Assembly: GCA_040357565.1 (NCBI GenBank)
Contig: JBDODJ010000104.1
Length of the DNA: 39,404 nt
Direction: 5' to 3' (one strand)
From: Cercozoa sp. M6MM
Taxonomy: Eukaryota > Protista > Endomyxa: Ascetosporea
Under the pieces are notes generated by a model. The model saw only the letters and a list, made by a program, of their open reading frames with translations, did not search any database and was not told where the DNA came from. Shown one piece after another: positions 8,673 to 39,107 of this stretch. Each line of letters begins with the position of its first letter. Within the stretch, counting starts at the first letter, position 1. The translations under genes were made by a program, and so were the position numbers.

Positions 8673-11600
8673 TCACACGTCGATGGCGAGTGCGAGGTTC
8701 GACGGCAGGAGCCACGGGAAGTGGAAGTAACCCGCGGCTTCGAGATCGGCGTTGCGTGCCTCCATCACTTGCGCCATCTCGTCGGTCTCGCTCAGCAGGT
8801 TGGCACGTGCGCGCAGCAGCAGGCGCCTCTCATGTCGCGCTGCATTACATGTGAGGTAAGGAGTATAAGGGCCAAAGAGCGAAACAAAGATTGGGTACTG
8901 CTGCCATCGTCGCGAATAGGTAGACCATCCATCGCCTCGACATCGCCACGCCAGTCCTCCAGACGACCGTTCGGCGGCACCGACAGTACGCGCGCACTCT
9001 GCCACCAAGCTATGATAGGAGAGGGCACGGGGAGGGAAAACGTGAGATACCTGGATGGTGTGCACCGTGCGCGGCACATCGGCAATGGCCTGCACCATGT
9101 ACTTCTCCGAGAGCGCCGAGTGCGCTGCCGCCGGCGGGAACGGCAGCGTCTGGAACAGCGGCCGCGTCGGCGGGTACGCGTAGAACTAAGGCCAAAACTC
9201 ACGTCATCAAGGAAGGAGGCGGGTGTGTAAACTGAACGTACATCGTATTGCGCAAAGTTAACCGCACTGTGCTGTGCCATGCCTGTTGACACATGGGGAA
9301 GTATAAACGGGGTTGTGGTACAGGGTAAGCAGCAAGGTACTCTGGAACAAAAAGTGCGCGATAAAGTCGACCGTCAGCGGTCGAGATGCGCAGGTAGGCA
9401 GGTCGGCAAACAGCGACGACACCTCACGCAACTCGCGCAACAGCTGTGTCAGCAACACGCTGCTCGTCGCGCGGCCGTCCTTCTGTTTCAATCCATCACA
9501 AGGTCCAGAGGGTAGGGTAAGTGGTAACACAAGGTATACCTGCAGGAACAAATCCTCTGACGTGTTGCTGCACTCTTCTGGCAGACCCGGCCACACAAAG
9601 TCCACTAGTTGCCGCGCGTACTGGAAAGGGGCAAAACGAGTAAAGGTCACGGACAAGATCGATCGGCAGGTACGCGATGCAGGGCGTCATAGACACGTGT
9701 GCCGTCCTCGAGGTAGGCAAAGTGCCACGGGTAGTCATCTATACACTCAAGGGGTAACTACCCAACCGATACTCCCTTCAGTGCCAAGTACCAGAAGAGC
9801 CGTTCTTCTCATCGAAAACAAAGCCACGGCGCTTCATGCGCTCCGGGAAACTCGCACTCAAGAAACGCCAGCCTTCGCTCCCTTCCTCGCCTGCGAGATA
9901 TCACATACTTTACTGAATGATATCTTTGTAGAAACGAGTACCCGGGAGAGGCATGCGGTCGCCGTGCGCAAAGAAAGCGTCAATGATCTGGAGTGCACCA
10001 CGGGCGCCTGCCGACGACACTTCGTCAAACATGCCGTGTCGCACCAGCAGCTACGGGGGGGGGGGGGGGTAGAGGATAAGATAGAACCAGGATGAAAGGA
10101 AACAGGGTGGTACAGTCTTGCGTCCGAGGTCGTTGATAGCGACAGCACCGGAGCAGTGCTCACCGAGAGCCAACATGCCTCGACGCGCCTCTCGCTGCAG
10201 GGCCTCTCGCCACGCCTCCAGTGGCTGCGAATGTCGCACCGACGGGTACCGCTGTAGGTGCTGGTCCAACAGGTGCTCCACCTAGGAGGCGACGAGGTAA
10301 CAGTTGGAGGCGAGGCAAAGTGGCAAAGGTACGGTCTCCTCGTCTGAAGCCATCTCTTCAAACACGCGGTGCAGCAGCACCACCACTGGCTCCAGCGCGA
10401 GGTGCGTGTCGCCAAGGTGCGAAGCGAACTCGTGCACATGCGCGTCAGCCACCATTGTGCAACTAAAGGATGTAGTGGTAACGAACGGTGAAGCAGACAA
10501 GGAGAAAACAGCTCGAGTACATCTTGGCAAAGGTCCAGGCGTTGTCGTTTTCGTTGCGCCAGACGAGTTGTGGCTCGTGTCCGTGGTGTTCGCGGCGTGC
10601 CTCAGGAACCGCGCCCGACACGATCTGAATCGCCACGGGCATCAACTCGCGCCTGGCGTCCATCACAAACAGCACGGCCGGTGCGTGCACCACCCTGTTA
10701 CAGGGAAGGGTAGAGGGGGTGTAAATGAGGAGGTTAACGGGGCAACAGATGGGTACCGTCCATGCAGCGGATCAGCCATTGAGGTGAGCGCCAAATCGGC
10801 CACAAAGATTCGGCCTTGCTCCACCGACTGTTTCAGGTTAATCTCTTGCTCCAAGCGTTTCTCATCCTCTCTGATGGGGTACGGGGTAACGGGCAAACGA
10901 AAGCAGAGGGGCAGCAAGCTAAAATACTCAGACAGACGCATGAGTTGCTGCACTTCGAGCAGGGACATGGCACGACGCAACACGACCGGATTGATGCCAG
11001 CCACCTGTGTGAAACGTTGCTTTCACTCGAAGGCACACAAAAATTGAAGAAAAGTGTACAAACTGGTGCGCCCAGAGTCGGTCATCGTACAGCTTGTCCA
11101 CGCCAAACAACTGCTCACACACATAACGTACTAGTGCGGACATAGAGGGGATTGTATTTGATACCAGAGGTTTCTGAAGCTGCGCATGGAATGCATGCGA
11201 CGCGAACAGCTGTGAAAATCGAAACAATCTCACAAACCCAGAAAACAAAAACACAAAACACAAACTGGAACGTAAAAAACAGAAACATTGATTCAAAAAA
11301 CCTGAGTGTAGTCTTCCAGAGAGCTGAACGCGTCACGACTCAGCGAACTCTCCGGGCGCAACCTACATGTGCCAAAAATCCCCAAACACCCGCAAATATG
11401 CTTTTTTGGCGGAACTGACCACAAAAACTCGCCACGCACATTCTCGAGGACAATTCGAAAAAGCTGAACGGCGTTGTGTGCTGTCCAATAGCTGTGGGAT
11501 GCCGGCACGTGTTTCACTGCGCAGCTCACGCACACAAATCACATTCGATCACACGGCGAGTGACTGGAGTAAATTTACCGTGGGGGGCAAGATGACGATG

Positions 11601-15441: not shown

Positions 15442-15988
15442 ATGGTAACACTGACTAAGGCTATTGTGACCCATTGGTGCCGACCGCCATGCGGCTGTTT
15501 TTAGGGCAAGGCGAAGCGCACCAAGAAGTTCGCCTTGGTAAAGCGTCGTCTGGGCGCCAAGGACAACCGCTCGGCGACGGCCGAGGCACTGAAGGAGCGA
15601 GAAGCCAAGGCAGTCAAGAAGGTGCAATCTTTGGTTTTTGAAAAGTGAGTAGTGTTAACCCACTTTGGTGCGAGGAAGCAGAAGACGGCGAGATGGCACG
15701 ACGCCGGCACGCAGCCGTCGCACATGTTCTTTGAGCACAACGAGGCACTGGGCCCGCCATATCGAGTGCTGCTGGACACGAACTTTATCAACTTTGCCGT
15801 CAAGAACAAGATCGATCTGGTACAAGGCATGATGGACTGCATGCTGGCCAAGTGCATCCCGTGCATCACCGACTGCGTTATGGCCGAACTGGAGAAACTC
15901 GGGCAAAAGTACCGCGTCGCTCTGCGCACTGCCAAGGTAGATTTGGTTGTACTTTTCCTGCAGTATACGTGTGGCTATTTGTATGTGT

Positions 15989-16019
<31 letters not shown>

Positions 16020-16307
16020 TGCAGGACCCGCGAGTCAAGCGATTAAAATGCACGCACAAGGGAACTTACGGTAAGATGCGCTGCTTAGAATTTCGCAGAC
16101 TGAGCTGTGACTCATCGTGTTGGCACAGCTGATGACTGTCTCGTGCATCGCGTCAAAGGCAATCGCGTCTTTGTGGTGGCCACGTGCGACAAAGACCTCA
16201 AGCGACGCTTGCGCAAGATCCCTGGCGTGCCCATCATGTACATCTTCCAGCACAAGTTTTCGGTCGAACAGCTGCCCGAGGCCTATGGTGCTCCTCGCAA
16301 CGGCTAG
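15442..16307 (+). CDS. FCF1: rRNA-processing PIN nuclease FCF1/UTP24, 5 exons
   Basis: M|[14 protein letters not shown]...[23 protein letters not shown]...[22 protein letters not shown]...CTHKGTYADDCLV...[23 protein letters not shown]. The first coding exon is the ATG alone (intron 15445-15504). Confidence 0.97.
15989..16017. repeat. (TA)n microsatellite in an FCF1 intron
   Basis: Perfect TA run. Confidence 0.9.
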
Positions 16308-16519
16308 ATTGCACCCGACCGCTACGCCTGCCGTTTCTCGTTATTTGATTGCATAATTAAAAAAAATCCACTGCGGCAGGTTCTCCGGACGTGCTTGCAG
16401 AATGCTCGTTCGGAGAAACGTGATAATGTTTGAACCTGCGACCAAAGGGCTAGTCTGAAGGAAAGTTTCTGTAGCACTGCACACCGGTACAGTGCTTGTG
16501 TTAATAGCAACCTAGCGCA

Positions 16520-18931
16520 ATGCTGTGGTATGACGGGAAGACGCTTCGAACGATAAAGCTGCTGGCGAGGTACTCCGGCGTTCTCGGGGAATGATATTAA
16601 CTTCCAATTGAGATACCGTGGCTGCAACAAACGGTGCAGGGTGCGAGGAACCGTGTGGCCGCTGATAGTGCGTCCGATGGCGTTCTTTTTGCTGCTCAAC
16701 GCACTGTTTACTGCTTTCGTCGTTCTTTCGCGTACTGTAATCTTTACATATCACTACGATCAGTACAAATATGTCTCTGTGTAGCTTCGTCGTGGTTGCT
16801 GACGACGGTGAATGTCGATGCCTTGTCGGGCAAGTTCTGCGAAGTGTTGGGTCTCTTCCTGTTCTTCACACAGTCGTGGTACGTGTCGCTCTGCGCTCAA
16901 CGGTTCTGGGACCTGTACACCAATGCCGCTGCCATCGCCACTGAGGTAAGTTCAGTTAATCCGACGAGAGCTAGCTTCCAGCACCGTGCATCACTGTAGA
17001 TCGTGTTAACATCACGCCTCGTGGCAGCATACATTCGACCTGCACGTAAACTTACCTCAGGCTTGTTACTCACCTTTGAAAGCACCCCGGCCCCAAATTT
17101 CTCCATACACAACAGCGAGCACCTCGATCAGTTCGTCGCGGTCCAACATTGTTCGCGAGCAAAGCGACATGGACAACGTATGCTAGTGCTTTCACCTTCT
17201 ACAAGTCTGCACACGCTAGTATCGCACTGGAATGAAAGCAGAGACGTCTATCGACGGCGTGGACACAGCAAGCCAAGTCTGTCGCGCTCTTTCGTCAAGC
17301 AGCTGGTCTACTAGCAATAACTTTCGCGTATTTACTCCCTTTCGTGTACAGTATTGATTTATTTGATACAGACGAAAGCGGAGCCGGCGAAATAGGCCGA
17401 AGTGCTCGAGGCTCCCTCGATTCACTGCCTACCTACCTGTTCATTCAGGTACTTAACCTTGCTACCTATATGTCTTTGTATACACTTGTCGCAGCACGAG
17501 ATCGTACGATACCTAAACCTCGCATTCGCCATCACGTTCCACGAACTGGCCGGTTCTGCCTCCAAGTAAGCTTCTTGGTTATCAATTAAGTTGCACAGCT
17601 GATACTGGTCCTAAAATAGACTGACGTTTCTGCGACTGGTAGAGAAAGGTCTCTGCTCGCCTGCGGAAGGACACGCGCTGTTCAAGGACACAGACCTGGC
17701 ACGCGAGACCTTCCCGGTTCGCTGGGCCTCCGAACGCTTCCTTCAGGCGCAGCAGCATCACCTGGTGCAGTACATTCTCTTCGCAGTAAAATAATCATGC
17801 GTTGCTATGATATATTGCTGCAGGTGGCAGGAGTCGCAGTGCAACGAACCTTTGAATCGTACACTCCCTCCACCCAGGTTGGTACAGTCAATACCTTTGA
17901 CTGTGGTGGAGTAGACACCTGGGCGAACTGGCAGGTCGACTCGGCACGTTCGGCGACTTCTTGCGCTGTCCTCCGCCCTTTGCCTATTATCACTTGTACG
18001 CTTGCCTTCTTGGCACAAACAAGACTAGTATTGAAAGCACACACAGACTGGTGACACTGTCGTGGTTGTATACGTGTGTTGCTGTTCCGTCCTTCGCCAT
18101 AATATCACCTGTACAAAGCGTGTACCTGTTATGTCTAGGTAGTAAATTGAATGTATACCGGGGTGTGTGCAAAGTACTTGTCGTTCCTGGTGACGTTCGT
18201 GCTGGTGTTTGGTCTGTTCGGACTCAATGCAGTGAGCACGGTGTTGTCAAGTCCGTTCGGCGGCGACGTTTACTCGCTCGATGTGGCCTCGATCCTCAGC
18301 AGTACGTCGGCCAACTCCATGGCACTCATTCGTCCCAAGGTATCATCTGATATCATCTTTCTTTTATAACCCCATCCCCCAACTCAAACACCTGTGTGTG
18401 TGCACTAGCTCTCACTGCAAGCTGTGCTCCTGGGCGAAGATCGCAAACGTTCGCTCAACTCGCTGGTACAGTCTTAACACAGCTTCAGATTGTGCCAGGT
18501 ATCAGAGTAAATGCATGTTTGACTAGGCCAATGATGTGGCACGTGCGTCGTTGCAAGCTGCACCCAGAGGCACCGAGGGACAACACTGGAAGATCTTCGA
18601 GGACACCGATAAGCAAGACACCGAGCACAGCGGACGCGTCGAGAAAGCTCAACTACGCGACACTATGCCCAGTGCTGCGGTATTCTACCCCTCCCTTTAC
18701 TCCCACCATCTACCCCAGTCTCTATAGCCAAACGTGTCGTTGGCACACGACGTGCAAGAACTCGAAAAGGAACATATCGCCTCGCTCTCGGAGGAACCTG
18801 TGTCTGCCACACCTTCCCATCCTGCGACACCTGCACCATCGCCTGTCCGCGCGGAGGAAACACAGCCCCGTCCGCACGAACATGCCGTCAGTATTGAATC
18901 CTCGGGTGAAATGGGACCCGCAGCCCCATAG
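16520..18931 (+). CDS. Bestrophin-family anion channel
   Basis: Spliced motifs LLARVRGTVWP, QRFWD, EIVRYLNLAF, LVEKGLCSPAE, FPVRWA, PPPFAYYHL and VLSSPFGGD follow the order seen in bestrophins. Confidence 0.85.
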
Positions 18932-21064: not shown

Positions 21065-21929
21065 ATGGGCCAAAAGTACTTTAAGTGGAAGGCCGTGCAC
21101 CTCAAGTACTCGCCGCCGTACGCAGACTCGCGCAAGTCGCGCGTCGTTCCGTTCCGGCGGCTGCCGCTCGGTTTCCAAGGCCCCAGGGTGCGTTGTTCAA
21201 TCTGGTTGATATTGATCGCAAGCACATCGAATAAAATTGAAATTTATGTGGTTTGTTTGTGTTTGTTTGTACAGATCACATGGAAGATGCAGCACCAGGT
21301 GAGTACTCTTTACCATGTATACCAATTGTTGAGTTTGGCGTTTGAGCACTGGTGTGTTGCGCAGGCCAAGGAGATTGTGAGACAGTACTACGCCATCAAG
21401 ACGAACGATCAGTTGAAGAAGATCGCCGCCAAGGCGCTCAAGAAGCGAAACGCCCGCATGCGCACGTTCAACTTCATCGATCTGCTTGAGCGACGTCTCA
21501 TGACGATGTACACTCGTGCTTTTTCACTTGATCAATCCAGTTAATTTTCGCATTGCAGGGTCTACAAGTTCGGTGCTGCCGACTCAATGTGGGCCGCGCG
21601 GAAGGTCGTGGTTCACGGTCACGTGCGTGTCAACGGCGAAGTCGTGCGTGCGAGCAGTCACATCGTGCAGCCCGGCGATGTCGTGCGTATCGACCCGCGT
21701 CTCCCGCTTCGGTAAGCTTGAGCTCTTTGTTTGTGAGTTTACTTTGCTTGCTGTGCTTTTGTGCTTGACTGAAGCTTGTGTGTTTATGCCGTTTTGGATT
21801 TTGGGCAGAGAGAAGTTCGCCAGACGAATCTTCACCAACGTGCAAGAGTACCTGATGGCCAACAAGTACTACGTGAGACCGCACCCGTCGCCGCCCATCG
21901 TGCCAAACTACGTGGTAGCTTTAACACAC

Positions 21930-21992
<63 letters not shown>

Positions 21993-22255
21993 CAACACGC
22001 ACAGATAGATAGCTTGCGATTGATTGGTTTTTGTGCGTGCGTGTGCGCAGCTTTGGACGATGCGATACAACGCACCGGTGCGCAGCGAACTCGACGTCGA
22101 CTTTGGCGCACACTTCAACGCTAACCGTATCCTTTCTGCCTGCTTTGTTTAATTCGTAAGCACACGTTTTTTCTCGTTTGGTAGGACACTTCCTGCAAGT
22201 GCTCGAGATGGCCATGCAGTACTACCGCTACCGCACAAAGACGCGCTCGCTGTAA
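21065..22255 (+). CDS. rps4: Bacterial/mitochondrial-type ribosomal protein uS4, nucleus-encoded, 7 exons
   Basis: AKEIVRQYYAI...QLKK...NFIDLLERRLMTMVYKFGAADSMWAARKVVVHGHVRVNGEVVRASSHIVQPGDVV...IVPNYV matches the uS4/S4-domain pattern (LExRL...AR...HGH..VNG......S..V.PGD). The gene has six spliceosomal introns. Confidence 0.88.
21924..21993. repeat. (CA)n microsatellite in an rps4 intron
   Basis: Long CA run with rare CG interruptions. Confidence 0.95.
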
Positions 22256-22609: not shown

Positions 22610-24894
22610 CTAGATTTCTTCGGCATTGGCTGCGTCCAGCATGTGCCGATGCATGACGTACTCGGGGTCGTCGCCTTCCTCCTCATCGGCTTCCTCTTCG
22701 ACATCCGAGTCATCCTCGTCATCGCCTTCGATGGAGTTCAGGTTGAGAGCGTCCTCGTCGTCGACATTGTCAGGTGACCCGGATTCCTCAATCTGCTCGT
22801 CATCGTCAGTGTAGAGACGCGCCGATCGGCGCTGTGTCACCACATCGGACATAGTGTAAATAAGCAGAAAAGGTCGTTTGACTAGAGGGTACAGTTTGGC
22901 GCTGCGACTTGCGCGAAGGAAGCTGCGGCAGCGACGTCGGCATGATTTTGTCGAGATCGACAGCAGCGTGCAGTTGCATTGGATTCGGCGTCATTGGAGG
23001 CGACTGAAAAGAGACATAAACATAACAGCTTCAGTTCGGCGCCAACAGTGACTGTACCGAAACCCGACGCACGGCTTCTTCCATTTGCGCGCGTTTCGCG
23101 ATCCACTGTTCGTAGAAGTCGCTGTTCAAAAAGACAGCCACACGTGATGGCAAAACAACTGGTAGGCGAAAAGAGAGTGATGTACAGGTCGAGGTAGTAG
23201 TAGTGACGCGTGCCACTCTTCTCGGCACGCACAAAGAATCCCTGTTGCGTCAGACGTGCTGGGAACTGATGTCAAACATTCAATATCTCACATGTCAACA
23301 AGAGAGCACCGAAGGTACCTTGTTGAACTGCTTGCGTGTCTCGGCGAGTTTATCGCCCATGGAGTTCACCATCATCTCGTACATGTCACTGTTGACGAGT
23401 GCCGACTCAGGCGACGTGTTGCCGTTGAGTTTCATGAGGCGACACAGCGTGAGCGACATGGCCGACGGCTGGATCATGAGCACATCGCGCGTGCGACGAC
23501 GCTTCGCCGACGGCATACGCGAGCGCGAGGAACTGCCGCCGCTGGACGAAGAGAATTCGCGCTTGCGTTGCAGTGTTTCAAGTCGTTGTTGCTGTTGCTG
23601 TTGCTGCTGCTGTTGATGTTGTTGCTGCTGTTGCTGCTGAGCAGCTGCCACTTCGTACATCTTGCACGGTGGCAGTGACTGTACCCGTGCATGCAAGTGC
23701 CGATGCGCACTCTCCTGGACGAAAATCAAGCGAAAATCAACAAGATATGAAAGATCAACTGAAACTAACCTCGTTGTAGTTGACACGAGCGCGTTTGCGA
23801 CCCGAGCGACGACAGCCTTCGAAAAGTTGCGTTGCCTCGATCTGCTGCTGCTGCGTGTTGTGTAGATGCTGCAACAGACGCTGCTGTAGCTGCACGCGCT
23901 GTGCGTGCACTCGACGCTGTAGTTCTTTCGGTGCTAGGTCGCCTAAACATACATACCCGCCGTATTCTTGGACTGTTAAAAAAAAAACACGTAGATCTGG
24001 AAGTACTCGGGTGGCCAGCACGAAAGGCAGTGTCCAGTGAGGAAGCTTCAAGCATCTCGCAGTCTGGCAGTTTGCCACCGCGCAACGAAGCTTCGCGCAG
24101 AAAGCTTTCGAGACGTGAGAGCTGATGTCGCATCTGCAGCATCTGGAGTGCATTGCGCGACTCTTGCTCGACCATTCGACGCTCAAGTTGCTCGACAACC
24201 TTCTGCTGCTGTTGCACCTGCGTGGAACAGCGCTCTAGTTTCAACTCCGGCTTGCTCGACGCCGAGCCCGAAGCACGCAACTTTGCGTTCTCCGACTCGA
24301 GCTGCTTGATGCGTTCCAGCAGTGCTGCATCAGTGAAGATTTGATCTCAGCATATTCAACGTCAGCAGTAAAGTAGTTGTACTGTACCGTGCGTGTTGGA
24401 TTTCTTTTCGGTGTCAAGTGCAGGGCTTTTGGTGTTTTCGCGCGAGCGAGTCGCCGTTTCGCCGCCGCTGTTGATCGAAGTCGCCTTGCTGTCGCGACTG
24501 GTGCTCGAGCCGATTGAAGTCGACTTGCCGCTCGGAGGAGCGCTTTCGGTGTGCTTTTGCTGTTTCATGCGTTGCTGTGCGAGTTGCTGCAGGTGCGCCG
24601 CTCGCAGAAGCTGCGCATTTGCTTTCGGCTGCGGTGCCAGCGCAGCTTGGCCGGAGCGTTTCACCTGCGCAACAAACCATGGTCCAGTTTGATTGAACCC
24701 ATGAAATCGAAAACACTTCACAGAACAGAACGCACCTTGCTCAGAAGTCCGCCTTTGCTTTTGCAAGTGGTACCTGTACCAGGCGCATTCTTCATGGCAG
24801 TAGGCAGCACCATTGGAATTGACTTGGACAGGGCAGTCGGAGGCTGCGAAATTGTGCCACGAACCACGGGCAGTCCTGTGTTGTCGGCTGACAT
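22610..24894 (-). CDS. Gln-rich coiled-coil protein with an acidic tail (probably nuclear, function unknown)
   Basis: Start MSADNTGLPVV...; coiled-coil exon (KVVEQLERRMVEQESRNALQML), polyQ tract (23585-23640), NLS-like AKRRRTR, D/E-rich final exon ending NAEEI*. Confidence 0.65.
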
Positions 24895-25014
24895 ATCTCA
24901 AGTTCGTTAGTTCTTGCGTGCCCTACCGCTGCTGCGAAGTACTTCTGCGCAGAAACGCGACTCGTAAGCACGAGAAACGCGAAATTCGGAATGAACTTTT
25001 TTAGTCAGTTCAGC

Positions 25015-25338
25015 TCCCCAGTTCCAACCCTCGGAAACTGCTCTTTCGCGGCTAGCGTTGCAAACGCAAGTTTTCTGCGACTGCAAGCAGCAGTGAAGCA
25101 ACTTCAGACACGGAATTAGCCCTAGGCAAGGGCGTTGCCGTTTCCAGGCGGAACGAAAAATTCAAAAACCCACCCTTCGCGTGGGGAGCTTGAACGAAGA
25201 CAAAGCAACGCGTCTTTCGGATTTGCGTTGTGCTTGTGACACAGCCTGCTAGTGCAAACGTGCCGCCGATGAGCGTAGACGCAAAAATCCTTTCAAGGCA
25301 AGAATAGGCGCGTCCTCGCGGATTGGTTCGGCTGGGGA
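25015..25338 (-). ncRNA. Candidate structured RNA of unknown family
   Basis: The ends pair (TCCCCAGTT at 25015 with GGCTGGGGA ending at 25338). About nine internal hairpins. Several loops read as GNRA on the minus strand (tcc-GCGA-gga, ctg-GAAA-cgg, c-GAAA-g). Confidence 0.4.
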
Positions 25339-26185
25339 AAATACGAAAAAGTCGGATTTCTGACAATTCTAGGAAGTCCGCAGCTGGTTCCGCTGCTCAA
25401 CTGCATACAAAGTCTTTAATACAATCTCTGTAATTATTCTTATTTGACGTCTCAGCCAGGGCCAGAGGTACCGCCTTGCTTGGTACCCGTCACGAGATTG
25501 GGAACAATCGACGGTTGCGGCCCGCTTGTGGGGCGATCATAGATGATGCCGCCTGCAACCATAAAGACAACGCAATTTGGGTGATTGCGCAGGAACCGAG
25601 CGTGTGCTCAACTGTACGCAGCGCAGGAGCTCGCTGAAGGTACACGCTGGAGACCTACAGTGCAAGGTACGGTTTTCTCTGACCCGTCACAGGTTGGTCG
25701 CCATTGCTTCAACCCGCCGTTCTGGCTTTTGCTTCTGGGTTGGCTCCAACAGCAACAACCTGACATTGGTTGCGATGTTTGTTGTGTTACATTCTGGCGA
25801 TCCTATGCGGGTACGGCTGGTCGGACGACCGCCCCCGATTGGGGCATTTTTGCGTTTTGCCAGTTTTGATTGATTGATCGATGCGCTGTTTTGACAGGCG
25901 ATGCTGTAGCTTGTCCTTTCTGCAACCAAGCATATCGCGCGCGTTTCTGTGTTTAGATTGCAGTAGAGAGCTGTGTGTGAAACAGAAGTGAAGAACAACT
26001 GGCAGGCTGACACCGTCATCTTTTGCTTTCGTTTTGCTTTGCTGCGAGTGCTTCGCGCGTGGTTAGTGTTTTTTTCGGAGTGTGCGCAAGCGCAGCACCG
26101 TCTCTGTGTGCGAGTGAAACCGTGTGTCGCTTTTGGTCGACAGAGATACGCGCGCATACAGTCGTTTTGAGAATCGCGAGGTCTC

Positions 26186-28555
26186 ATGCAGGACGAGGAG
26201 CCTGCCGCGCTGTGTCGGCAACTGCTGCAGCTGTATCCCCTTTACCTTTAACCTTTAGTATTAAGCCTTACCCTTCCGGTATCTTATGCAGGGTGGAGCG
26301 CATGCTGGCTGCCGACGAAGCGGCGCGTGCCTTGTTCTCGCCGAACGCGGCGCAGCATGGCGTCGATCGTGAGCTGTGGCGCGCCGAAGGCGAGCTGCGT
26401 GGACGCTGCGTGCAGTACCTACGCGAGAGGGTACTTTGCTCTGGCAGCTGTACTGGGCGGGGTAACAGGGCCCAGAGAGAGAGGGTAAAGCACGGTGTGA
26501 GCAGGTGAGCAGGCCACTGAGCGAGGCGTTGCATGAGTGGGAGACACGTGCGCGCACTGCTTCCGAGTCCGAACGACAGACGATGCGCGCGCGACTGCAG
26601 AAGTCGCGACGACAGGCGCAGCACGCACTCGCGGCACGCCAGCGCAGTGTGGAACAGTGCGTGCGCGACCCGACTCTCCAGCGGCCAGATGTGCGGCCTG
26701 TGGAGGTTTACCCTCCCCCATCCCTTCTTTTACCCCCATGTACCCCCCCCCCCCAGGCGCGAGTGGTAGAGATGCCAGCCTACGCAAGCGGCGTGGTGCC
26801 GACGCTGGCGAGTGTGCTGTCAGCGCCGTTGCTGTCGCGGTCGGTGTCGACACCGTCGTCCGCGCGGACGCTGGTGCCCGGTGTGACTGTACCCAGGGTG
26901 ACTGTACCCGGGGTGACTGTACCCGGGGTGACTGTACCCAGGGCAACTTTGCCTAGGGTTCACAGGATGACAGCACCGAGGATGACGGTACCAGTGACAC
27001 CGTCGAGATCGACAGGAAAAGCAGGTGGCACTGCCACTGGTGCAGCGACGGTTTCTATTGATCTGGACTCGATGGAACTGGAGACGCGTCTGCACCGCAT
27101 TCGCTCCATCGTGCGACTGGCCGCCAAGTGGCGCCACCGACTGCAGCGGCACACCGAGGTCAGCTTTACCCCCCCCCCCCGCTCTAGCCCCTCTTCCCCC
27201 TAGCCAGCCCACACCTTCTTACCCCCTCCCGTAGGCACACAAAGGCCACCTAATCGACCTGCCGGCCATGTGGTATCCTGTGCTACCGAGTAGTTAGTAG
27301 TACCTGTCAAACAAGCGTGTTGACTGGGGGACAGCGAGGAGACCAAGCTGGCGCTGCAAGTGATGAGCACGCGCAGTCGCGTGCCGCCGCCGCCGCGCTT
27401 TCGCTACGCCATGTGTGTTTACCCCCCCCCCCCCATTACCCCCTTGAGCCCGTTGAGCCCACATTTCTGTATACCCCATTCTACCCTTGCCCAGGCGCGG
27501 GCCGAACGAGAAACGCACCGAAAGCGACAAGGCTGGCGACGACGACGACAGCGAAAAAGAGACGCGCAAACGCAGCGCCGACATTTCTGCGCTGCAGTTT
27601 TTCGGCTACTACGTGCCTGACTCGTATTACCCCCCTTTTTACCCCCCCCCCCCCTACCCCCCCCCCACACCTTGTACCCTCCCCGCGTAGCTACAAAGAT
27701 CTCGAACCAAACCCCGCGTGGAGGTACTTCAACCCACCTTACCCCCCTTACCCTCTCCCCCCCCCCCCCCCCCAGGCGAATTAGAATATGGTACGACAAT
27801 AACGGCAAAGTGTTCTACGACTGCGAGTACGTTTGTTTGTATTTTCGGGCGTTTCTCTCAGACACGGTTGTTGGTGTTGTTCGTGGACAGGTGTGGTCGA
27901 CGCAAGCCGGTGCACGACATGCGCAAAATCAAGATTCACTCGGCCGATGTGCCGCACACTGTAGTGCTGTGTTTTACCACCTTTACCCCCTACTACTCCC
28001 TATACCCCCCTGTGTGCACAGGTGATACCGCAGAAGACAGCGCGTGCAGAGGAGCGGCCGGCGCTGCCGGAGGCCAAGAGGCGGCGCGTGCAGACACCAC
28101 GATCGGGATCAGTGACACCGTCGGCAGCACCGTCAGTGGTACCATCGGTGGTTCCATCGGTAGTACCCTCAGTGGTACCCTCAGTGGTATCAGCAGTGAC
28201 ACCGTCACTGGGATCACTGGTGCAGCAGCTGTGGTCGCTACAGCCGATGAGTTACCTGCTGGCACTCAACAATCACATGCGACGAGCTGCCTCCAGTCAG
28301 AGTCACGGTGTGCCACGTGCCAATGTGACCACTGCTACACTCGGCTCGCTGACTGCCGCCACACTGGCGCAGCTCGGCCTGCCGCCCGTGCGATCGGTGG
28401 CATCACCTCGCTCGCCGCTGTCGCCGCTGCTGTCGGTACTGACCCCCTCCCACCCCATCTATCCCTTCTACCCCCACCTTCAGCAACAAAGCAGACCTGA
28501 CGATAGCGACGACAGCAGTAGCTCGAGCGATCACGACTCGCACGTGTCTACTTGA
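26186..28555 (+). CDS. Putative zinc-finger regulatory protein with low-complexity repeats
   Basis: Exons join in frame from MQDEEPAAL... to ...DHDSHVST*. Contains RIRIWYDNNGKVFYDCECGRRKPVHDMRKIKIHSADVPH (CxC...H...H) and the NLS-like AKRRR. The start is uncertain; 25500-26180 is unresolved. Confidence 0.6.
26883..26942 (+). repeat. 15-bp coding tandem repeat x4 (VTVP[RG])
   Basis: GTGACTGTACCC(A/G)GG x4. Confidence 0.95.
28130..28189 (+). repeat. 12-bp coding tandem repeat x5 (PSVV)
   Basis: CCNTCRGTRGTW x5. Confidence 0.9.
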
Positions 28556-28973
28556 CTCCACGCACACGAAAGGCATCATGATCATCACTTGACCTTTGCT
28601 TCCGTTTCTTTTGCGTCGAATACACCATATGACATGACGTTCGGTCAGAACACTGGCGTACGTATATGCTTGATGGATGCATATCGATTACTGTACGTCG
28701 CGTATTGTATGTAAATTTACGGTAGTTTGCTGATAGTTAGTTAGTTGAGTCTTCTAGGAAACCAACTATGTAGTTCCCCTGCACCAGTCTGGGGTGGGTT
28801 TAGTTTGCTGATAAAAGCTCAACTCGAACTAACTTTGTTAATAAAGACTCAGCTCGTCCTGCCTGTAACTCGCCTTAGCGGGTGGTTAGTTTGTTAGTTC
28901 AGTCTTCTAAGAACGTTGAAGCTTGGCGACACGAAGCCTTCAAACGTGCGCCATTGGGGTGCGAGGTAGTTCA

Positions 28974-31948
28974 CTATACGTTCACGCAGACTCCCTTGGC
29001 GTCAACGTTCGCCCTGCAGCAGTCTCGTCTTAGTCTTGGTTGGCGTCCAGCGACCCTCCACGTCGAAGTCTCGGGCGTCACACAGTGGCAGACTGACGTC
29101 GACAGCGACGATCGATACGTCATGGTTGCTACAGGATAGTCGGCGTCCAAGCGCCGACGTAGCACACCTTTGGCCGGGCGGCGACGGCGGCGGACGACTC
29201 TTGCGTCCAGCGAAGTGAGTGGTACAGTCTGACAGGCCAGTCTACTCTGGTGCGGTCGAGAGGATGGGAGCCAGGGTGATGCGGATAAATTTATACGATA
29301 AATTTGATTAATTTCGCGAGTGTTTCTTAAATTTACATTGGCAAACTTGTTCGACAGTTAATACAGGTACAATAGTCTGGCAGTATTCTGCCAAAGCCAC
29401 TGCGGTATCGATGCAGAGGCCGGGCGAAGGAGTGACTCTCGACTCGGAGTGAGGAGTGCGCTCATTTCGCATCACTCCTCGCTGCCGTGCACCCACGAGT
29501 AAACCACCGAGAATGACGAGCCGATCACGCACAGACATCCAAACAGTGCCACCGTCAACAAACCCAGCTTCACTACAGGTGCCCACGATACACAGCAACA
29601 CAATAAGCCGTATTGACGATACAACTCGTCAGTGTGTACCAGGGCGGGTCAACACGTGTTGGGGAACCACGCGGTACATCTGAACCACGTGCGTAACATC
29701 AGGGAAACTTGCTCAGTTGATAGACACGTGCGTGTAGTACAATCAAAGGCGGCAGGATGTAGGTCATGATGTTGCCAGGAAGTGCTCCAGCTATCTCGAA
29801 CGGTGTGTTTACCGACTTGCACAGTGACGCGATTGCAATCACCTACAGAACCGTCACATCGTAAACATATCCCAAAGAATAAGGTAGGCCATACTACTCA
29901 ACTGTACCCACAACAGACAAGCAGTCGATGCTCCGTAAAACCACTTACTGGGCACACTGCAAACACAATTGCGCACATTCACTTTGACTGGCAGCCAGTC
30001 AAATAAATAAACGCACAGTGAGAGGTTTGAGCAGTTCGACAGCGCCGTATCTTTTTTCATCACCTCCAAGAGAGCACTCATGAAAGCCAAGGAGAGACTT
30101 CTGAATCCGATGAACAAAAGCGGGATCTCGGCTGCCATCGCGCATATGATGGCGAAACGCGCGATCTACGAAAGCCCAGTTCTGTGTGATACCCGGGGGG
30201 GGGGGGGGCGGTCGGTCTAATAAAAAGAACCAACCGTGCCGGGTGCTCCTCCAAATTCGGTGTTGCTCAGTACGCTGCTTTTGGGTGCCTACATAGTTGT
30301 ACTAAAAAACACAAAGTGGATTGAATAGATCCTAATTTACCTCTCCCAGCATGCGGTACGAGAAGAAGAAGAACATTGCGTTCAGCAGAGCGATAACGAC
30401 AAAGGCAATCACCGACAGCTTGGCGAAGCGACGCGTTCGCTTCTTTGCCTCTTTGTTCACTTGAGTTTCTTCTACTTCCTGTTTCAATAAATTTAATATA
30501 GATGGGGGGCGGATGGAGATACAACAACAACAACAACAACAAAAACGCAAGTGTCTACCGAGAGTTCGACTTTCATCTCTCCGCACATCTGCGGCGCGTT
30601 GAAGTGCGACATGTAGGCAATCGACACAAGTGCCACCAGCGACATCGTAGCCACCGGACTGTGCAATTTAAACAACCCATTCTGCAACTAAGTTTACTAT
30701 GAAAACATCCGACAAATGGTGTTACTCAAAGTCGGCCCAGTTGCGACCCTTGCCACCATCGAACTCGTGCTCAGGCACAGCTTTAGCAATGCCCAGATAC
30801 ACGGTAGCCAGCACCATGACCGAGATCGCAGTTACTCCAATCTATAGTATCACAGTCATTCCAACTCGTATATGATTAAAAAGGGTACCGCTGATCCATG
30901 TCGCAGCGCGTTAATCGTTCGTTGCAGGAACAGAGGCAGCAGTAATAGTGCCCAGATCAGGTGCAGCATCCACAAACGACCGTAAGAAGTCTCTCCCGTG
31001 TCTGGATCAGTGTCCTGTTGAAGAAAGACACCACATTGGACAGATACACAAGGGCACCGACCGGTAAGAAAGCCCGTAGTGTACCAAAGGAATTAACACG
31101 GTGTCTTCCAACGAAGGCCAACGGAGACGCAGGAGATCCGCCGTTGTACTGCTTAGCACCATACTACGCAAGCCAGACAATGAACACAACGAGTACACTT
31201 CCAAAGAGAGGCCAACTCACAAGCAGCCAGGCGCAGCAACAGCGAGCAGTCCCATCACACACAAGACGACAACAACGGCAGCTTTGTCGCCAAACGCCAG
31301 GCGCGTGAGTTCGCCTGTCGATAACCAAACGTAAGCTGTACTTGTTTACCACTGGACAAAAAGTACTCGCTGTTACCGTAGGAAAACCGGCGTGTGTAGG
31401 ACGAAGCGGCACCCAGCATTGCGTGTGCTGAAAACAAACCATAAACTTAAATAGATTTTAAATTTTAAATATCGTCTCAAATGAAGAAAAAAAGATAGAT
31501 ACAAGCAGAGGCCATGAAAAAGGTGAATCCGACGAGCGCGAAAGTGACAGCAGCACTCGCGTTGTGTCCGAGCAACGGCATAACAACGAGGCCCGCACCG
31601 ACGGCATTTTTGATGATGCTCACGAAAGTGGCGATCGCGCCTGCACGTGCGATCCCCTTCTGAATGATATCTCTACACCAAGGGAATGCAAGAAGAGAGG
31701 AAGTTCCCTCATTCATCTCCGAAAGGCACTCATCATTATAAAATATACCCAGCCTCGACGTCATCTGACACGGTTGTCGTTGCCGTGTCCTCGTCAGTGA
31801 TGTGAGTCTACCACAGCAAGCAACAGAGCACGTAAAGAAGTCAGCACGCGCGTAAAGACGGTCGTTTTATAGCCAAAGATACGCTCGTGTATAATTCTAA
31901 CACGCTGCCCCCGGCGCGCCGCGAACGGGCTTCATTGTTTGACGTCAT
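28974..31948 (-). CDS. Amino-acid transporter (AAAP/SLC38-like Aa_trans family)
   Basis: ATFVSIIKNAVGAGLVVMP (TM1 motif), VSIAYMSHFNAPQM (TM6 motif), EIPLLFIGFR and several further TM exons. The C-terminus ends either at 29308 (unspliced) or at 28974 (via a GTACCT donor near 29369). Confidence 0.82.
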
Positions 31949-32487: not shown

Positions 32488-35400
32488 CTAATCACAGCTG
32501 GGCGGTGTGCTGCAGGTGCTGCTGCAGGCACTACCGGTGGCACTACTGCTCTTGCTGTGCGGCGTGCGTTTCCTGTGGCGTGTGCGGCGTCTACTCGGCG
32601 TTTTCTGGTGCCGCTCGAGAGCAGCAGCCACCTGTGCATAGATTCGTTCCGATAAATGTCGGTGAAGACACATCGCATAAGCCTAGTGTACCAGATCAGC
32701 CATGTCAGTGTCGTGATCCTCATCGGGAAGTGGCGGGAACTGCGGCATGTTGGTCGGCGTATTAGTCGGCATGTTAGTCGACGTCTCTGCCGACACATCT
32801 TTCGGCGGACCATTCCTCTCGACCAAACAAGAGTGTTCGACAGGTCGGTCAAAGTCAGGCAACGCAGGCGACAAGGACTTGTTGAGTTGCTGCACGTGTG
32901 CGTGCACCTCGTCGCTCAACATGCGACAGCCGCGAACGTCGATTTTCTGCAGCGTCCTTGACTCCAGCAGTGCTTGTACCGCCTGAAGCAGGGAAGATGG
33001 GGGGGGGGGGGGGTAGAGTGGAAGAAGTGGAAGTGCGCTACCTCGTTACTCAAGATTCGATTGAAAGCAACACTCACGTGTCGCAACTGACCCTGCAAAA
33101 AAGTGGTTTTAATACGCATATATATATATATATATAATCACATACATAAGTGTAACATACAAACACAGATGTAACATACCTACGTATGTGACATACATAC
33201 ATATACATAACATACATACACATGCCTATAAAACATAAATATTAAAAGTGTACATTGCGAACGAGGTGTCGGAAAGATGGCACAACTAGTGCGCGGCAGT
33301 TTTCGACCTGTTTACAAATCTCTTGCTTTACCCCCCTACCCCTTCAAAGAAGTTAATGTTACGTTGAGAAACTCGAGTTTGCAATTCGTCAGAGAAATCG
33401 AGCGCAAGTTTCGGCATTGTGAAACATCCAGATGCGTCAAATTAGGCGTCTAGTTCAAGCAACATGCTACCTCATCTGACCCTCTAATCCACTCAAGCAG
33501 AACTAGAAATACACAGAGTTCGAGTTGACGCAGATTCGTGTTGTTGCGTAGTCGCAGTCGCTGCATTGTCGGCGACTCCACGCGGAGGAACTCGAGTGAC
33601 TGACAGGCGTCCATGCGCAATTCGCGCAAGCACTCGCTCCGCTCCGTCTGCAGTGTCCACCTGCCGAAACCTGTTCGGAGGGAGGTGTACAGTGGGTATG
33701 GGGGAGGGAGCCTAAAGTTACCCTTGCACCCAGTAAGGTCCAGGCAGTGCAACGAGCCGAAACCGACGCGTTGGAACAAATCGGCACGCACCACACGCGA
33801 CGGTGTCTGGTAAAAGGGGTGGGGATGGGGGGGGGGGGGGATAAAAATGTAAAGGGGTAAGAGGTAAACTACCGAACGCAACACGAGTTCGCGCAGGTGC
33901 GGAAAACGACGAATCGCGGCGGACACCGCACTGGCGTCCATGTACATGCACCTAAGGGGGGGGGGGGTAAATTGTGTATGTATGTATGTGTGTGTATGTG
34001 TGTGTATGTGTGTGTGTGTAGGGTGGGGGTGACAACACACTTGGACAACTCAAGTCGCTGCAGACTCATATGTCGGACAGCCGGTGATTGCGCTGCCTGC
34101 GGGGGGGGGGGGGTAAGGGGAAGGGAGCGGTAAGGGGAGGGAGGTAAGGGGAGGGAGGTAAGGGGAAGGAAGGGGTAAGGGGAGGGAGGGGTAAGGGAAG
34201 GGAGGGGGTAAGGGGACGGGAGGGGTAAAGAGTAAAGGTATATGGGTAGGGGGCGATGGGAAAAAGAGCAGGGTAAGGAAACCCTGCGAATGCCGGCGCC
34301 AGTGATATCGGTGCCAGACAGAGTGAGCGACGTGAGCCAAGGGGCCGCCACGAGGAGGCCGAAAACCTCGTCGTCAGTGATGGCACATCCGGCGAGATCC
34401 AATGTGCGCAGTGTCGTCGCCAGCACGCCCGGCAGTCGCGCGAAACTTTCGAAACGCTCACTTCGCACTGTCAGACTCTCCAGCTACACACACTCCCTTA
34501 ACTAACAATACCAACTCCCTTAATAATTAGTCTCAAACCCTTAATAATAGACTCAAAGCCCTGTAAGAAAAGTCTTCAGACCCCCCCTTAATAAATAGCT
34601 GATATGTACCGACGGGAAGCAAGCCACCATGCGCAGTAGCGCCTCGTCTGACACATCGGCCAGACGCCGGTGCACACGTAACACACGCGTGCTACCAAAG
34701 TCCTCGCGAGCGCGACGACACGTGAGTCGACTCACTTGTGCCACTGGAGTCAGTGTTGCACTATCCAAACCAACACAGGAAACACGAAAAGTGCAAGCTA
34801 CACTTGGCCTTGTCGGCATAGTTCAGCTGCATCAGAATGCGCCACTACAAGATTCAAAGGTCCAAGGGTGTGTTTGACGAGAGAACAACTCAAACGCACA
34901 TAAAGAGGATCAGGAAGCGACGATAAACGATCAGTCGGCAGTTCTAACTCACATGCAAAGTGAAACAGCCCCATTTTAGCTTTGGCTACAGTGTGTACCA
35001 GGTGTACGAGGAGCTTCGCTGCGTGCAGGCGCGAAATACTCGAGCACACGATCCGCATCCTGTCCCATTGCAATCCAGACCTCATGCAACAGCAGACTGT
35101 CGACATGAGGCAGCGCAGCTCGCAAACTCTCCAACTGAGCAGTTTTATTGTTTTCTCATTGAATTGAAACGATCAAACAAGTTTGTTTGCAAACTGAAAG
35201 TACCGAAATCGCCGCTAAACGCTCTGCGTGCACGTCCAATACGGACGTTTGCGTTCCTGGTGTCTCTCTGCTGCCGCCGTCCAACAAGAGACTGCAATCG
35301 ATCAGAAATGACCAATCGAATAATTTGATTAAATTTAGATCGAAAACTGTAGGAAGACAAGTTTGTTTGTGCAAGCTTGTTTGCTGTAAATTTACCTCGT

Positions 35401-38531: not shown

Positions 38532-39107
38532 CGTAAACATAAAAAGCAGACTCAATTGTGTTATGGTACAAACCTGTTGATTGTGAGATTGTCACTTTTA
38601 GTGGAGACAACGACTGAAGAAAAGTAAGATGTAAGATCGTTTAATTTAGTGTTCGTTCGACGTCTCAATAAACCAAATCCGCCCAAGCACTATGACGGCA
38701 GAACGTATCAAGTGCAAAGGGACGAAGCTCCGTCGAAGGAAGCTGGATAAGAGGGAATTCGAACTGCAGTCAAAGTGGTGAGCTGTCGGAAGCTTGTTGC
38801 AATTAAACGGCAAATATCGCGGGTACGTTCCGGATCGGCGGGGCGCTTTTTTTCTTTGGTCTTGCGTTGTATGGGGAAAAAATCCCCATCGCATTGTCAA
38901 AAAAGTGATATCCTTCCAGGGGGTTGCAAACTACCTAAACATACCAGACAGCCAAGGGCAAATAAAAGAATCCGTCAAGGAAACTTAGGAAAGCCCACAA
39001 CGCCTAACGGTTGGATTTTGCAAAAACGCTCCGCCAATCCGGGGCATACCCTTATAGCGCTGAATAAACGTCAGACAGATGAACACCGAATTCGCGCGAG
39101 TCAGTTT

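What the first reader, a model, noticed from the sequence alone, without database searches (positions are those of the whole stretch)
25015..25338. Candidate novel structured RNA of about 320 nt between divergent genes
Seen: a terminal helix (25015-25029 with 25325-25338) encloses nearly back-to-back hairpins at 25055-25067, 25094-25106, 25119-25133, 25133-25155, 25161-25194, 25200-25237, 25273-25282, 25289-25298 and 25313-25322. On the minus strand several loops are GNRA-like (GCGA, GAAA), Sm-site-like AUUUUUG and AAUUUUUCG lie between hairpins, and AGAAA...UGCAA recalls RNase P CR-II/III, although I could not find a P4 pseudoknot. No credible ORF. Inference: a divergent RNase P/MRP, snRNA-like or telomerase-like RNA, an undescribed ncRNA, or a structured 5' leader of the Gln-rich gene.
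Basis: partly seen in the sequence, partly recalled or inferred. Interest (0 to 1): 0.75.

Follow-up and report, generated by a model that had tools for sequence, protein, structure and literature searches.

The report
Likely long spliced mRNA leader exon
This non-coding stretch in a marine amoeba folds only modestly and matches no catalogued RNA family; it is most likely an ordinary part of a long, intron-split 5' leader of the neighbouring orphan gene, not a new RNA gene.

Summary
The complementary segments are in the sequence, but the fold is unremarkable. z is -1.3 to -2.4. 8 of 43 same-length control windows fold as well, and about 4% of random probes find an equally good long-range partner. 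When flanks are included, a competing helix (25013-25020/25182-25189) displaces the terminal helix. Rfam gives nothing. RNase P/MRP, snRNA, SRP and telomerase hallmarks were absent or at chance level.

The stretch is single-copy, non-coding DNA of Cercozoa sp. M6MM (Lemnamoeba sinaloensis). A splice-site model trained on 42 introns of this window finds three strong minus-strand introns: 25643-25553, 25471-25401 and 24996-24945 (0 of 300 shuffles match this). The last two bracket the element. The minus strand has no AUG for 510 nt up to the start codon (24894) of the Gln-rich orphan gene MHM6MM_003407.

Best reading: the element lies in a predicted 404-nt exon of that gene's long spliced 5' leader, behind a short upstream ORF. 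No RNA data and no relative were available, so transcription and conservation are untested. A discrete novel RNA is not excluded (about 12%).

The parts
25015..25338 (-).
24997..25400 (-). Predicted 404-nt internal 5' UTR exon, no AUG
   Evidence: bounded by predicted introns; AUG count 0 vs 2.6 in shuffles, P 0.046; fold z -1.69
25401..25471 (-). Predicted 71-nt leader intron (GT..AG)
   Evidence: score 11.8
24945..24996 (-). Predicted 52-nt leader intron (GT..AG)
   Evidence: score 11.8
25553..25643 (-). Predicted 91-nt leader intron (GT..AG); low intron-body score (-7.9)
   Evidence: score 11.1
25472..25552 (-). Predicted 81-nt leader exon with a 16-codon upstream ORF (AUG at 25540)
24895..24944 (-). 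Predicted last 50-nt leader exon before the start codon
22610..24894 (-). Gln-rich orphan gene MHM6MM_003407 (599 aa, 8 introns); coiled coils, acidic tail, weak winged-helix-like lead at residues ~385-495
25004..25201 (+). Best-folding segment (long stem with a three-hairpin junction); antisense to the predicted leader; boundaries chosen after the fact
   Evidence: z -3.53, 0 of 200 shuffles; rank 24 of 134 loci in the window-wide scan
25238..25319 (-). Two local hairpins that persist in all three minus-strand folding contexts (core stems p 0.93-0.98)
   Evidence: z -2.39
26186..28560 (+). Divergent neighbouring gene (my model; no database hit for the exon tested)

Best explanation
The element is non-coding DNA that is likely transcribed on the minus strand as most of a predicted 404-nt exon in the long, intron-split 5' leader of the orphan gene MHM6MM_003407, and its hairpins are likely the ordinary folding of a 52%-GC leader. 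Inferred route: Pol II starts upstream of 25471 (perhaps near 25700). Three short introns are spliced out. Ribosomes meet a 16-codon upstream ORF at 25540, then scan an AUG-free stretch of about 470 nt (after splicing) through the element to the start codon at 24894. The leader would set how much of this protein is made, by leaky scanning or re-initiation. Shown: non-coding, single copy, splice-signal scores, absence of AUG, modest folding. Inferred: transcription, splicing, start site, any regulation.
For: Three non-overlapping minus-strand intron candidates score >=11 in 24895-26185, against 0.07 expected; 0 of 300 dinucleotide shuffles reach three. At that threshold 10 of 11 hits in 16.6 kb of other predicted genes lie on the sense strand, and the antisense strands of the 8 training genes give 3 hits in 9.6 kb. 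The plus strand has none >=11. No AUG on minus between 25405 and 24895, the longest of 1024 AUG-free gaps in the window; shuffle P = 0.027. No coding signal: 0 of 8 windows in the element >0, against 89% of 72 true-CDS windows. Folding is at background level. The genome is compact (84% genes, median intergenic 162 bp, 13 introns per gene; PMC13746701 section 5), so a 1.29-kb start-to-start gap without coding signal suggests long UTRs. The T-rich skew on + from 25700 on fits a separate leader for the plus-strand gene.
Against: No RNA read was seen. The threshold of 11 was picked after looking, and only 19% of real introns reach it. At threshold 10 the plus strand also has two candidates (P 0.01-0.04); both use palindromic GTAC donors shared between strands. 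Intron-body scores of the three candidates (-7.9, 0.1, -1.5) are lower than typical. A 510-nt AUG gap is about the longest expected somewhere in a window of this size, and other upstream regions here are also AUG-poor (438, 285, 255 nt), so it marks 'upstream DNA' more than 'leader'. A 404-nt internal exon is large (1 of 34 training exons is longer). The element has the highest AA/TT excess of all 324-nt windows, which also fits promoter DNA.
Confidence: 0.6

Rival explanations
1. The element is mostly untranscribed or promoter-proximal DNA. A/T-tract-rich sequence forms the promoter of MHM6MM_003407 (start inside or just below the element, one leader intron at 24996-24945), and the upstream introns belong to a separate short transcript or are chance.
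For: Highest AA/TT observed/expected ratio (1.75) of all 324-nt windows, with low AT. AUG-poor like other upstream regions. Short A/T tracts on both strands.
Against: An upstream-versus-genic composition score puts it only at the 65th percentile, and that classifier is weak. By eye, the element has no AT-rich patch like those after the stop codons of the two NCBI-modelled genes that could end an upstream transcript. Two strong introns lie upstream on the same strand.
Confidence: 0.2
2. A discrete, undescribed structured RNA is made here, either the plus-strand domain 25004-25201 (or to 25397) or a minus-strand RNA cut from the leader or from a long 25471-24945 intron when the exon is skipped.
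For: 25004-25201(+) folds at z -3.53 with MFE close to centroid. 25004-25397(+) is well defined, z -2.37. A k-turn-like tandem GA lies next to the minus-strand terminal stem. Many true ncRNAs have only modest z (PMC1274297, passages).
Against: Boundaries were chosen after the fact; the domain ranks 24th of 134 locally stable loci in 39 kb. Such k-turn-like closures occur 1.0 per kb per strand. The minus strand has three internal T5 runs and the plus strand no T-run after 25074 until 25673, which disfavours a Pol III gene on either strand (terminator rule from my own knowledge). No Rfam match.
Confidence: 0.12
3. It is a highly diverged RNase P/MRP, snRNA, U3, SRP or telomerase RNA.
For: Length and paired ends fit. 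AGAAA and UGCAA are present. A crossing pair of inverted repeats (25195-25182/25020-25008 and 25163-25155/25001-24992) gives an RNase-P-like topology by eye.
Against: Rfam finds nothing even on 436 nt at E<=10, except one sR58 match at E 3.1. CR-I, CR-V, SRP helix 8, U1/U2/U5/U6 motifs, box C and U3 box A patterns are absent from 24900-26200 (patterns recalled). No closed GARAR pentaloop. No template for TAA[G]n or TTAGGG-type repeats. The crossing helix is plain U/A-rich and lacks the conserved CR-I/CR-V bases.
Confidence: 0.04
4. The gap hides a small multi-exon protein-coding gene whose exons overlap the element.
For: A 114-codon open frame on minus 25396-25052 and short protein-like frames on plus exist. 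The coding model scored one repetitive held-out exon at -4.4, so it can miss such exons.
Against: The minus frame has no AUG. 1 of 41 windows across the gap is >0 (max 0.5). Best gene parses are 40-58 aa, lie upstream of the element and rest on splice signals. Pfam: 0 families above cut-off for 9 open frames. Atlas best score 0.76, recognition 1253.
Confidence: 0.04

Closest known systems
Long intron-containing 5' UTRs with upstream ORFs in eukaryotic regulatory genes (GCN4/ATF4-type leaders; from my own knowledge)
   Same: Predicted short uORF, long AUG-free spacer, downstream gene with Gln-rich, coiled-coil and acidic segments
   Different: Neither transcript nor regulation shown; uORF number depends on an unknown start site; no conserved element known
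Eukaryotic RNase P / MRP RNA (Rfam RNaseP_nuc, RNase_MRP)
   Same: About 320 nt, paired ends, AGAAA and UGCAA words
   Different: No CR-I/CR-V P4 sequences, no GARAR P8 loop, no covariance-model hit, internal T5 runs on the strand that bears the CR-II/III-like words
Diaphoretickes telomerase RNAs (PMC8287931)
   Same: Size range, closing stem, unpaired stretch in the plus-strand domain
   Different: No template for the TAA[G]n motif reported for this organism or for TTAGGG-type repeats; no T-rich terminator after the plus-strand domain
U3 / box C/D RNAs with a terminal k-turn
   Same: Tandem GA/GA next to a 7-bp terminal stem on minus
   Different: No RUGAUGA, no U3 box A, D-like box is CCGA; motif occurs at chance rate

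Membership tests
RNase P RNA (nuclear) | P4 pseudoknot formed by CR-I and CR-V (PMC2996960, passages) | tested here: not met
   No CR-I or CR-V pattern in 24900-26200 (patterns recalled); Rfam negative
RNase P RNA (nuclear) | CR-II/CR-III T-loop module flanked by P10/11 and P12 | tested here: inconclusive
   AGAAA and UGCAA present on minus but in the MFE they are largely paired inside one stem-loop; five-letter words carry little weight
RNase P RNA (nuclear) | Pol III transcript without internal T-runs, ending at a T-run | tested here: not met
   Minus has T5 at 25287, 25168, 25160; plus has no T>=4 between 25074 and 25673. Pol II intronic exceptions exist (recalled)
RNase MRP RNA | P8 pentaloop GARAR (PMC13184271, passages) plus CR-I/CR-V | tested here: not met
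   All 8 GARAR words close with 0-2 bp; MRP CR-I absent
Sm-class spliceosomal snRNA | Family-specific 5' motif (U1 5' end, U2 branch-site pairing, U5 loop 1, U6 box) | tested here: not met
   None in 24900-26200 (patterns recalled); Rfam negative
Sm-class spliceosomal snRNA | Sm site RAU4-6GR between hairpins | tested here: inconclusive
   Strict pattern absent; loose AUUUUUG once on minus, 0.25 expected per 324 nt
Telomerase RNA | Template: permuted C-strand repeat plus one base (PMC8287931, passages) | tested here: not met
   0 hits for TAAG2-6, TTAGGG, TTTAGGG, TTTTAGGG; single chance-level hits for TTGGGG and TTTGGG (13 and 22 in the window). The true telomere repeat of this organism is uncertain (PMC13746701)
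SRP RNA | Helix 8 AGG..GNRA..AGCA motif | tested here: not met
   Absent in strict and loose form (recalled); Rfam negative
U3 / box C/D snoRNA | Boxes C (RUGAUGA) and D, U3 box A | tested here: not met
   Box C and box A patterns absent; k-turn-like closure at chance rate, 1.0 per kb per strand
Miniature inverted-repeat transposon | Many copies, terminal inverted repeats with target-site duplication | tested here: not met
   Flat depth 471.7, one 1960-nt contig with 0 differences in run X1 at 80% likeness; no duplication seen at the ends
Spliced 5' UTR exon | Flanking GT-AG introns on the gene's strand | tested here: met
   Predicted only: scores 11.8 and 11.8, 0 of 300 shuffles give three such introns
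Spliced 5' UTR exon | Presence in the mature mRNA | not testable with these tools
   No RNA holder listed

The most novel reading that the evidence does not exclude
A lineage-specific structured RNA of 200-400 nt is made from this locus: the plus-strand stem with its three-hairpin junction (25004-25201), or a k-turn-closed RNA released when the leader exon is skipped. It would be the first such orphan RNA in Apofilosa, possibly a non-canonical telomerase or other RNP RNA in an amoeba whose genome shows no canonical telomere repeats.
Probability: 0.12. Interest if true: 0.7.

Novelty: new member of a known kind. Interest (0 to 1): 0.18.

Why it matters
If the best reading holds it matters little: a long spliced leader with an upstream ORF ahead of an orphan, possibly DNA-binding protein, useful mainly as a testable prediction for the annotation of a deep rhizarian genome. 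If a discrete RNA exists, it would be an uncatalogued RNA in a lineage whose non-coding RNAs the two genome papers do not describe (term look-ups) and whose telomere repeat is unresolved.

Tried and rejected
Rfam: whole window at gathering 0 hits; E<=0.5 three repeat-driven hits elsewhere; 1401 nt and 436 nt around the element at E<=10 only sR58, E 9.9 and 3.1. No tRNA or tmRNA. No whole genome is held for this window, so other loci could not be searched for the true RNase P, MRP, U3 or SRP genes. Sequencing runs: no RNA holder listed. Run X2 holds only 24615-24795 and short repeats; X3 and X4 only C-runs. Metagenome scan with an 18-nt word: 15 loci; best extensions 24 nt, or 43 nt at 81%, read as chance. 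Viral scan with the 8-bp inverted repeat: 78 loci, no blastn match to the element. Phage and plasmid blastn: none. P0125 has no relative among 1.84 billion representatives and an exon of the plus gene found none, so no synteny or covariation test was possible. A self-training gene finder diverged after the first round and was dropped; the curated 8-gene model was used instead. A plus-strand spliced ORF guessed by eye across 25308-25953 got no support. AlphaFold models of P0125 and of its 107-residue domain were low confidence (pLDDT 49.7 and 45.1), so no fold search was run. Earlier findings: nothing for this genome or relatives, one unrelated archaeal item. Supplements of PMC11069148 (4 files held as text) held no locus-level entry; those of PMC13746701 were not opened and may bear on UTR annotation.

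Full report
Verdict. The stretch is real, single-copy, non-coding DNA, but its folding does not stand out from the rest of the window, and it matches no RNA family. The strongest non-random signal is splicing, not structure. It most likely belongs to a long spliced 5' leader of the Gln-rich gene. No RNA data could be examined.

Context. The window is eukaryotic. An exon of the gene at 15442-16307 found a 100% identical protein that the database labels Cercozoa sp. M6MM, with Pfam PF04900 (Fcf1). An exon of the Gln-rich gene found MHM6MM_003407 (P0125, 599 aa), which maps to 24894-22610 on the minus strand with 8 introns of 53-71 nt. The organism is now Lemnamoeba sinaloensis: 27 Mb, 84% genes, median intergenic distance 162 bp, 13 introns per gene, no canonical telomere repeat, a TAA[G]n motif at five contig ends (PMC13746701; I saw passages and sections 5 and 34). 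In PMC11069148 I saw passages and searched 4 supplement files. Neither text has the word snRNA or Rfam. In run X1 one 1960-nt contig covers 24767-26726 with no difference and the depth is flat, so the locus is neither a repeat nor a misjoin.

Is the structure more than chance? The 324-nt element folds at z -1.66 (+) and -2.36 (-); my own 200 shuffles gave -1.33 and -2.02. Of 43 control windows of equal length with unoptimised ends (43 of 61 planned, 12 shuffles each), 8 reached -2.36 or lower on their better strand. In a 120-nt scan that covered 478 windows (the first 28.7 kb), 11% were below -2 and the element's best was -2.96. The terminal helix exists, but about 4% of 3251 probes per strand find an equally good partner at that distance, and 27-28 of 31 blocks of 1.3 kb contain one. 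With flanking sequence the helix is replaced by 25013-25020/25182-25189 in three of four folds. That competitor closes a better plus-strand domain, 25004-25201 (z -3.53), but its ends were chosen after the fact, and in a scan of all local folds up to 250 nt it ranks 24th of 134 loci. The GNRA loops, the Sm-like word and a k-turn-like closure that I noticed all occur at chance rates. A modest z does not rule out a real RNA (PMC1274297, passages), so this removes the positive evidence without disproving a transcript.

Known families. Rfam gave no hit at gathering level and only sR58 at E 3-10 around the element. RNase P is defined by the CR-I/CR-V P4 pseudoknot (PMC2996960, passages) and MRP also by a GARAR P8 loop (PMC13184271, passages). 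My recalled CR-I and CR-V patterns found nothing in 24900-26200, and no GARAR word closes a stem. Using the template rule of PMC8287931 (passages), there is no template for TAA[G]n or TTAGGG-type repeats. Internal T5 runs on minus and the lack of a terminal T-run on plus argue against a Pol III gene.

Coding? A codon model from 8 genes of the window (6.9 kb, 42 introns; two are NCBI models, six my own) scores 89% of 72 left-out CDS windows above zero, median +5.7. In the element 0 of 8 windows are above zero in any of six frames, and across the gap 1 of 41. One repetitive held-out exon scored -4.4, so the model has blind spots. Pfam and the Atlas gave nothing for the open frames.

The positive signal. 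The splice model finds three non-overlapping minus-strand introns scoring 11 or more: 25643-25553, 25471-25401 and 24996-24945. Shuffles of the same DNA give 0.07 on average and 0 of 300 give three; the plus strand has none. At this threshold 10 of 11 hits in 16.6 kb of other predicted genes are on the sense strand (strands from my own gene calls). The second and third introns bracket the element in a 404-nt exon. The minus strand has no AUG from 25405 to the start codon, and the AUG at 25406 falls inside the second intron (shuffle P 0.027). After splicing, the nearest upstream AUG, at 25540, opens a 16-codon ORF. Against this: the threshold was chosen after looking, two plus-strand candidates score 10-10.5, the intron bodies score low, other upstream regions are AUG-poor too, and the element's extreme AA/TT content would also suit a promoter.

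How it likely works. Pol II would start upstream of 25471, back to back with the plus-strand gene, whose own T-rich leader seems to run from about 25700. Three introns would be removed. Ribosomes would pass or translate the short upstream ORF and scan about 470 nt, including two stable local hairpins at 25319-25238, to the main AUG. Such a leader would dampen or tune output of the protein. All of this is inferred. The protein is an orphan (1 hit, itself, in 1.84 billion representatives). The Atlas's predicted model aligns residues about 380-498 with winged-helix regulators at TM 0.55-0.66, below the naming bar, and my own models were low confidence. A regulatory role is a lead only.

Comparative evidence could not be had: no genome, no relative, no RNA holder. 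I found no paper on this locus; the organism search listed 2 papers and a 2026 search on the new genus name listed only unrelated reviews among the 5 shown.

Scores. Leader exon 0.60, promoter or split transcripts 0.20, discrete novel RNA 0.12, diverged known RNA 0.04, hidden coding gene 0.04. Interest 0.18; a new member of a known kind.

Noticed in passing
window 22610-24894 (-), residues ~385-495 of P0125: Orphan protein whose Atlas model aligns with winged-helix regulators (TM 0.55-0.66, below the naming bar); no sequence relative.
   Followed up: partly
window 16321-16500: Just after the Fcf1 stop codon, 120-nt windows fold at z -5.2 (+) and -4.2 (-), better than the element; no Rfam hit.
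   Followed up: no
window 3084-3296 (+), 38821-39052 (+), 17312-17465 (+), 29784-30033 (+): Locally stable folds with z -7.8, -6.0, -5.3 and -4.6; 29809-30132 also gave -5.4. Causes not examined.
   Followed up: no
window 28734-28980 and about 22000-22230: Multi-copy repeats: very high summed depth and many loose ends in run X1; likely short interspersed elements.
   Followed up: no
window 21065-21830 (+): Intron-split gene that I read as a bacterial-type ribosomal protein S4 (recalled, not scanned); fits the report of mitochondrial ribosomal genes moved to the nucleus (PMC13746701).
   Followed up: no
window 8673-11400 (-): Gene with at least 15 introns that I read as a lipoxygenase (recalled, not scanned; model).
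   Followed up: no
window 26230-28500 and 33700-34290: Introns full of TTACCCC / GGGGTAA runs, the same TAA[G]n motif reported at chromosome ends (one search counts; PMC13746701).
   Followed up: no
window 25811-25897 and 25906-25956 (+): Possible introns in the T-rich leader of the plus-strand gene (second scores 9.8); a CxxC..CxxC-like frame overlaps them (Pfam zf-Tbcl_FmdE E 0.015, below cut-off).
   Followed up: partly
L017, L021, L025, L034 and 13 more loci of IMGVR GVMAG-S-1035145-40: 17 copies of a ~168-bp foldback repeat with long inverted ends, MITE-like, in one giant-virus bin; unrelated to the element.
   Followed up: no
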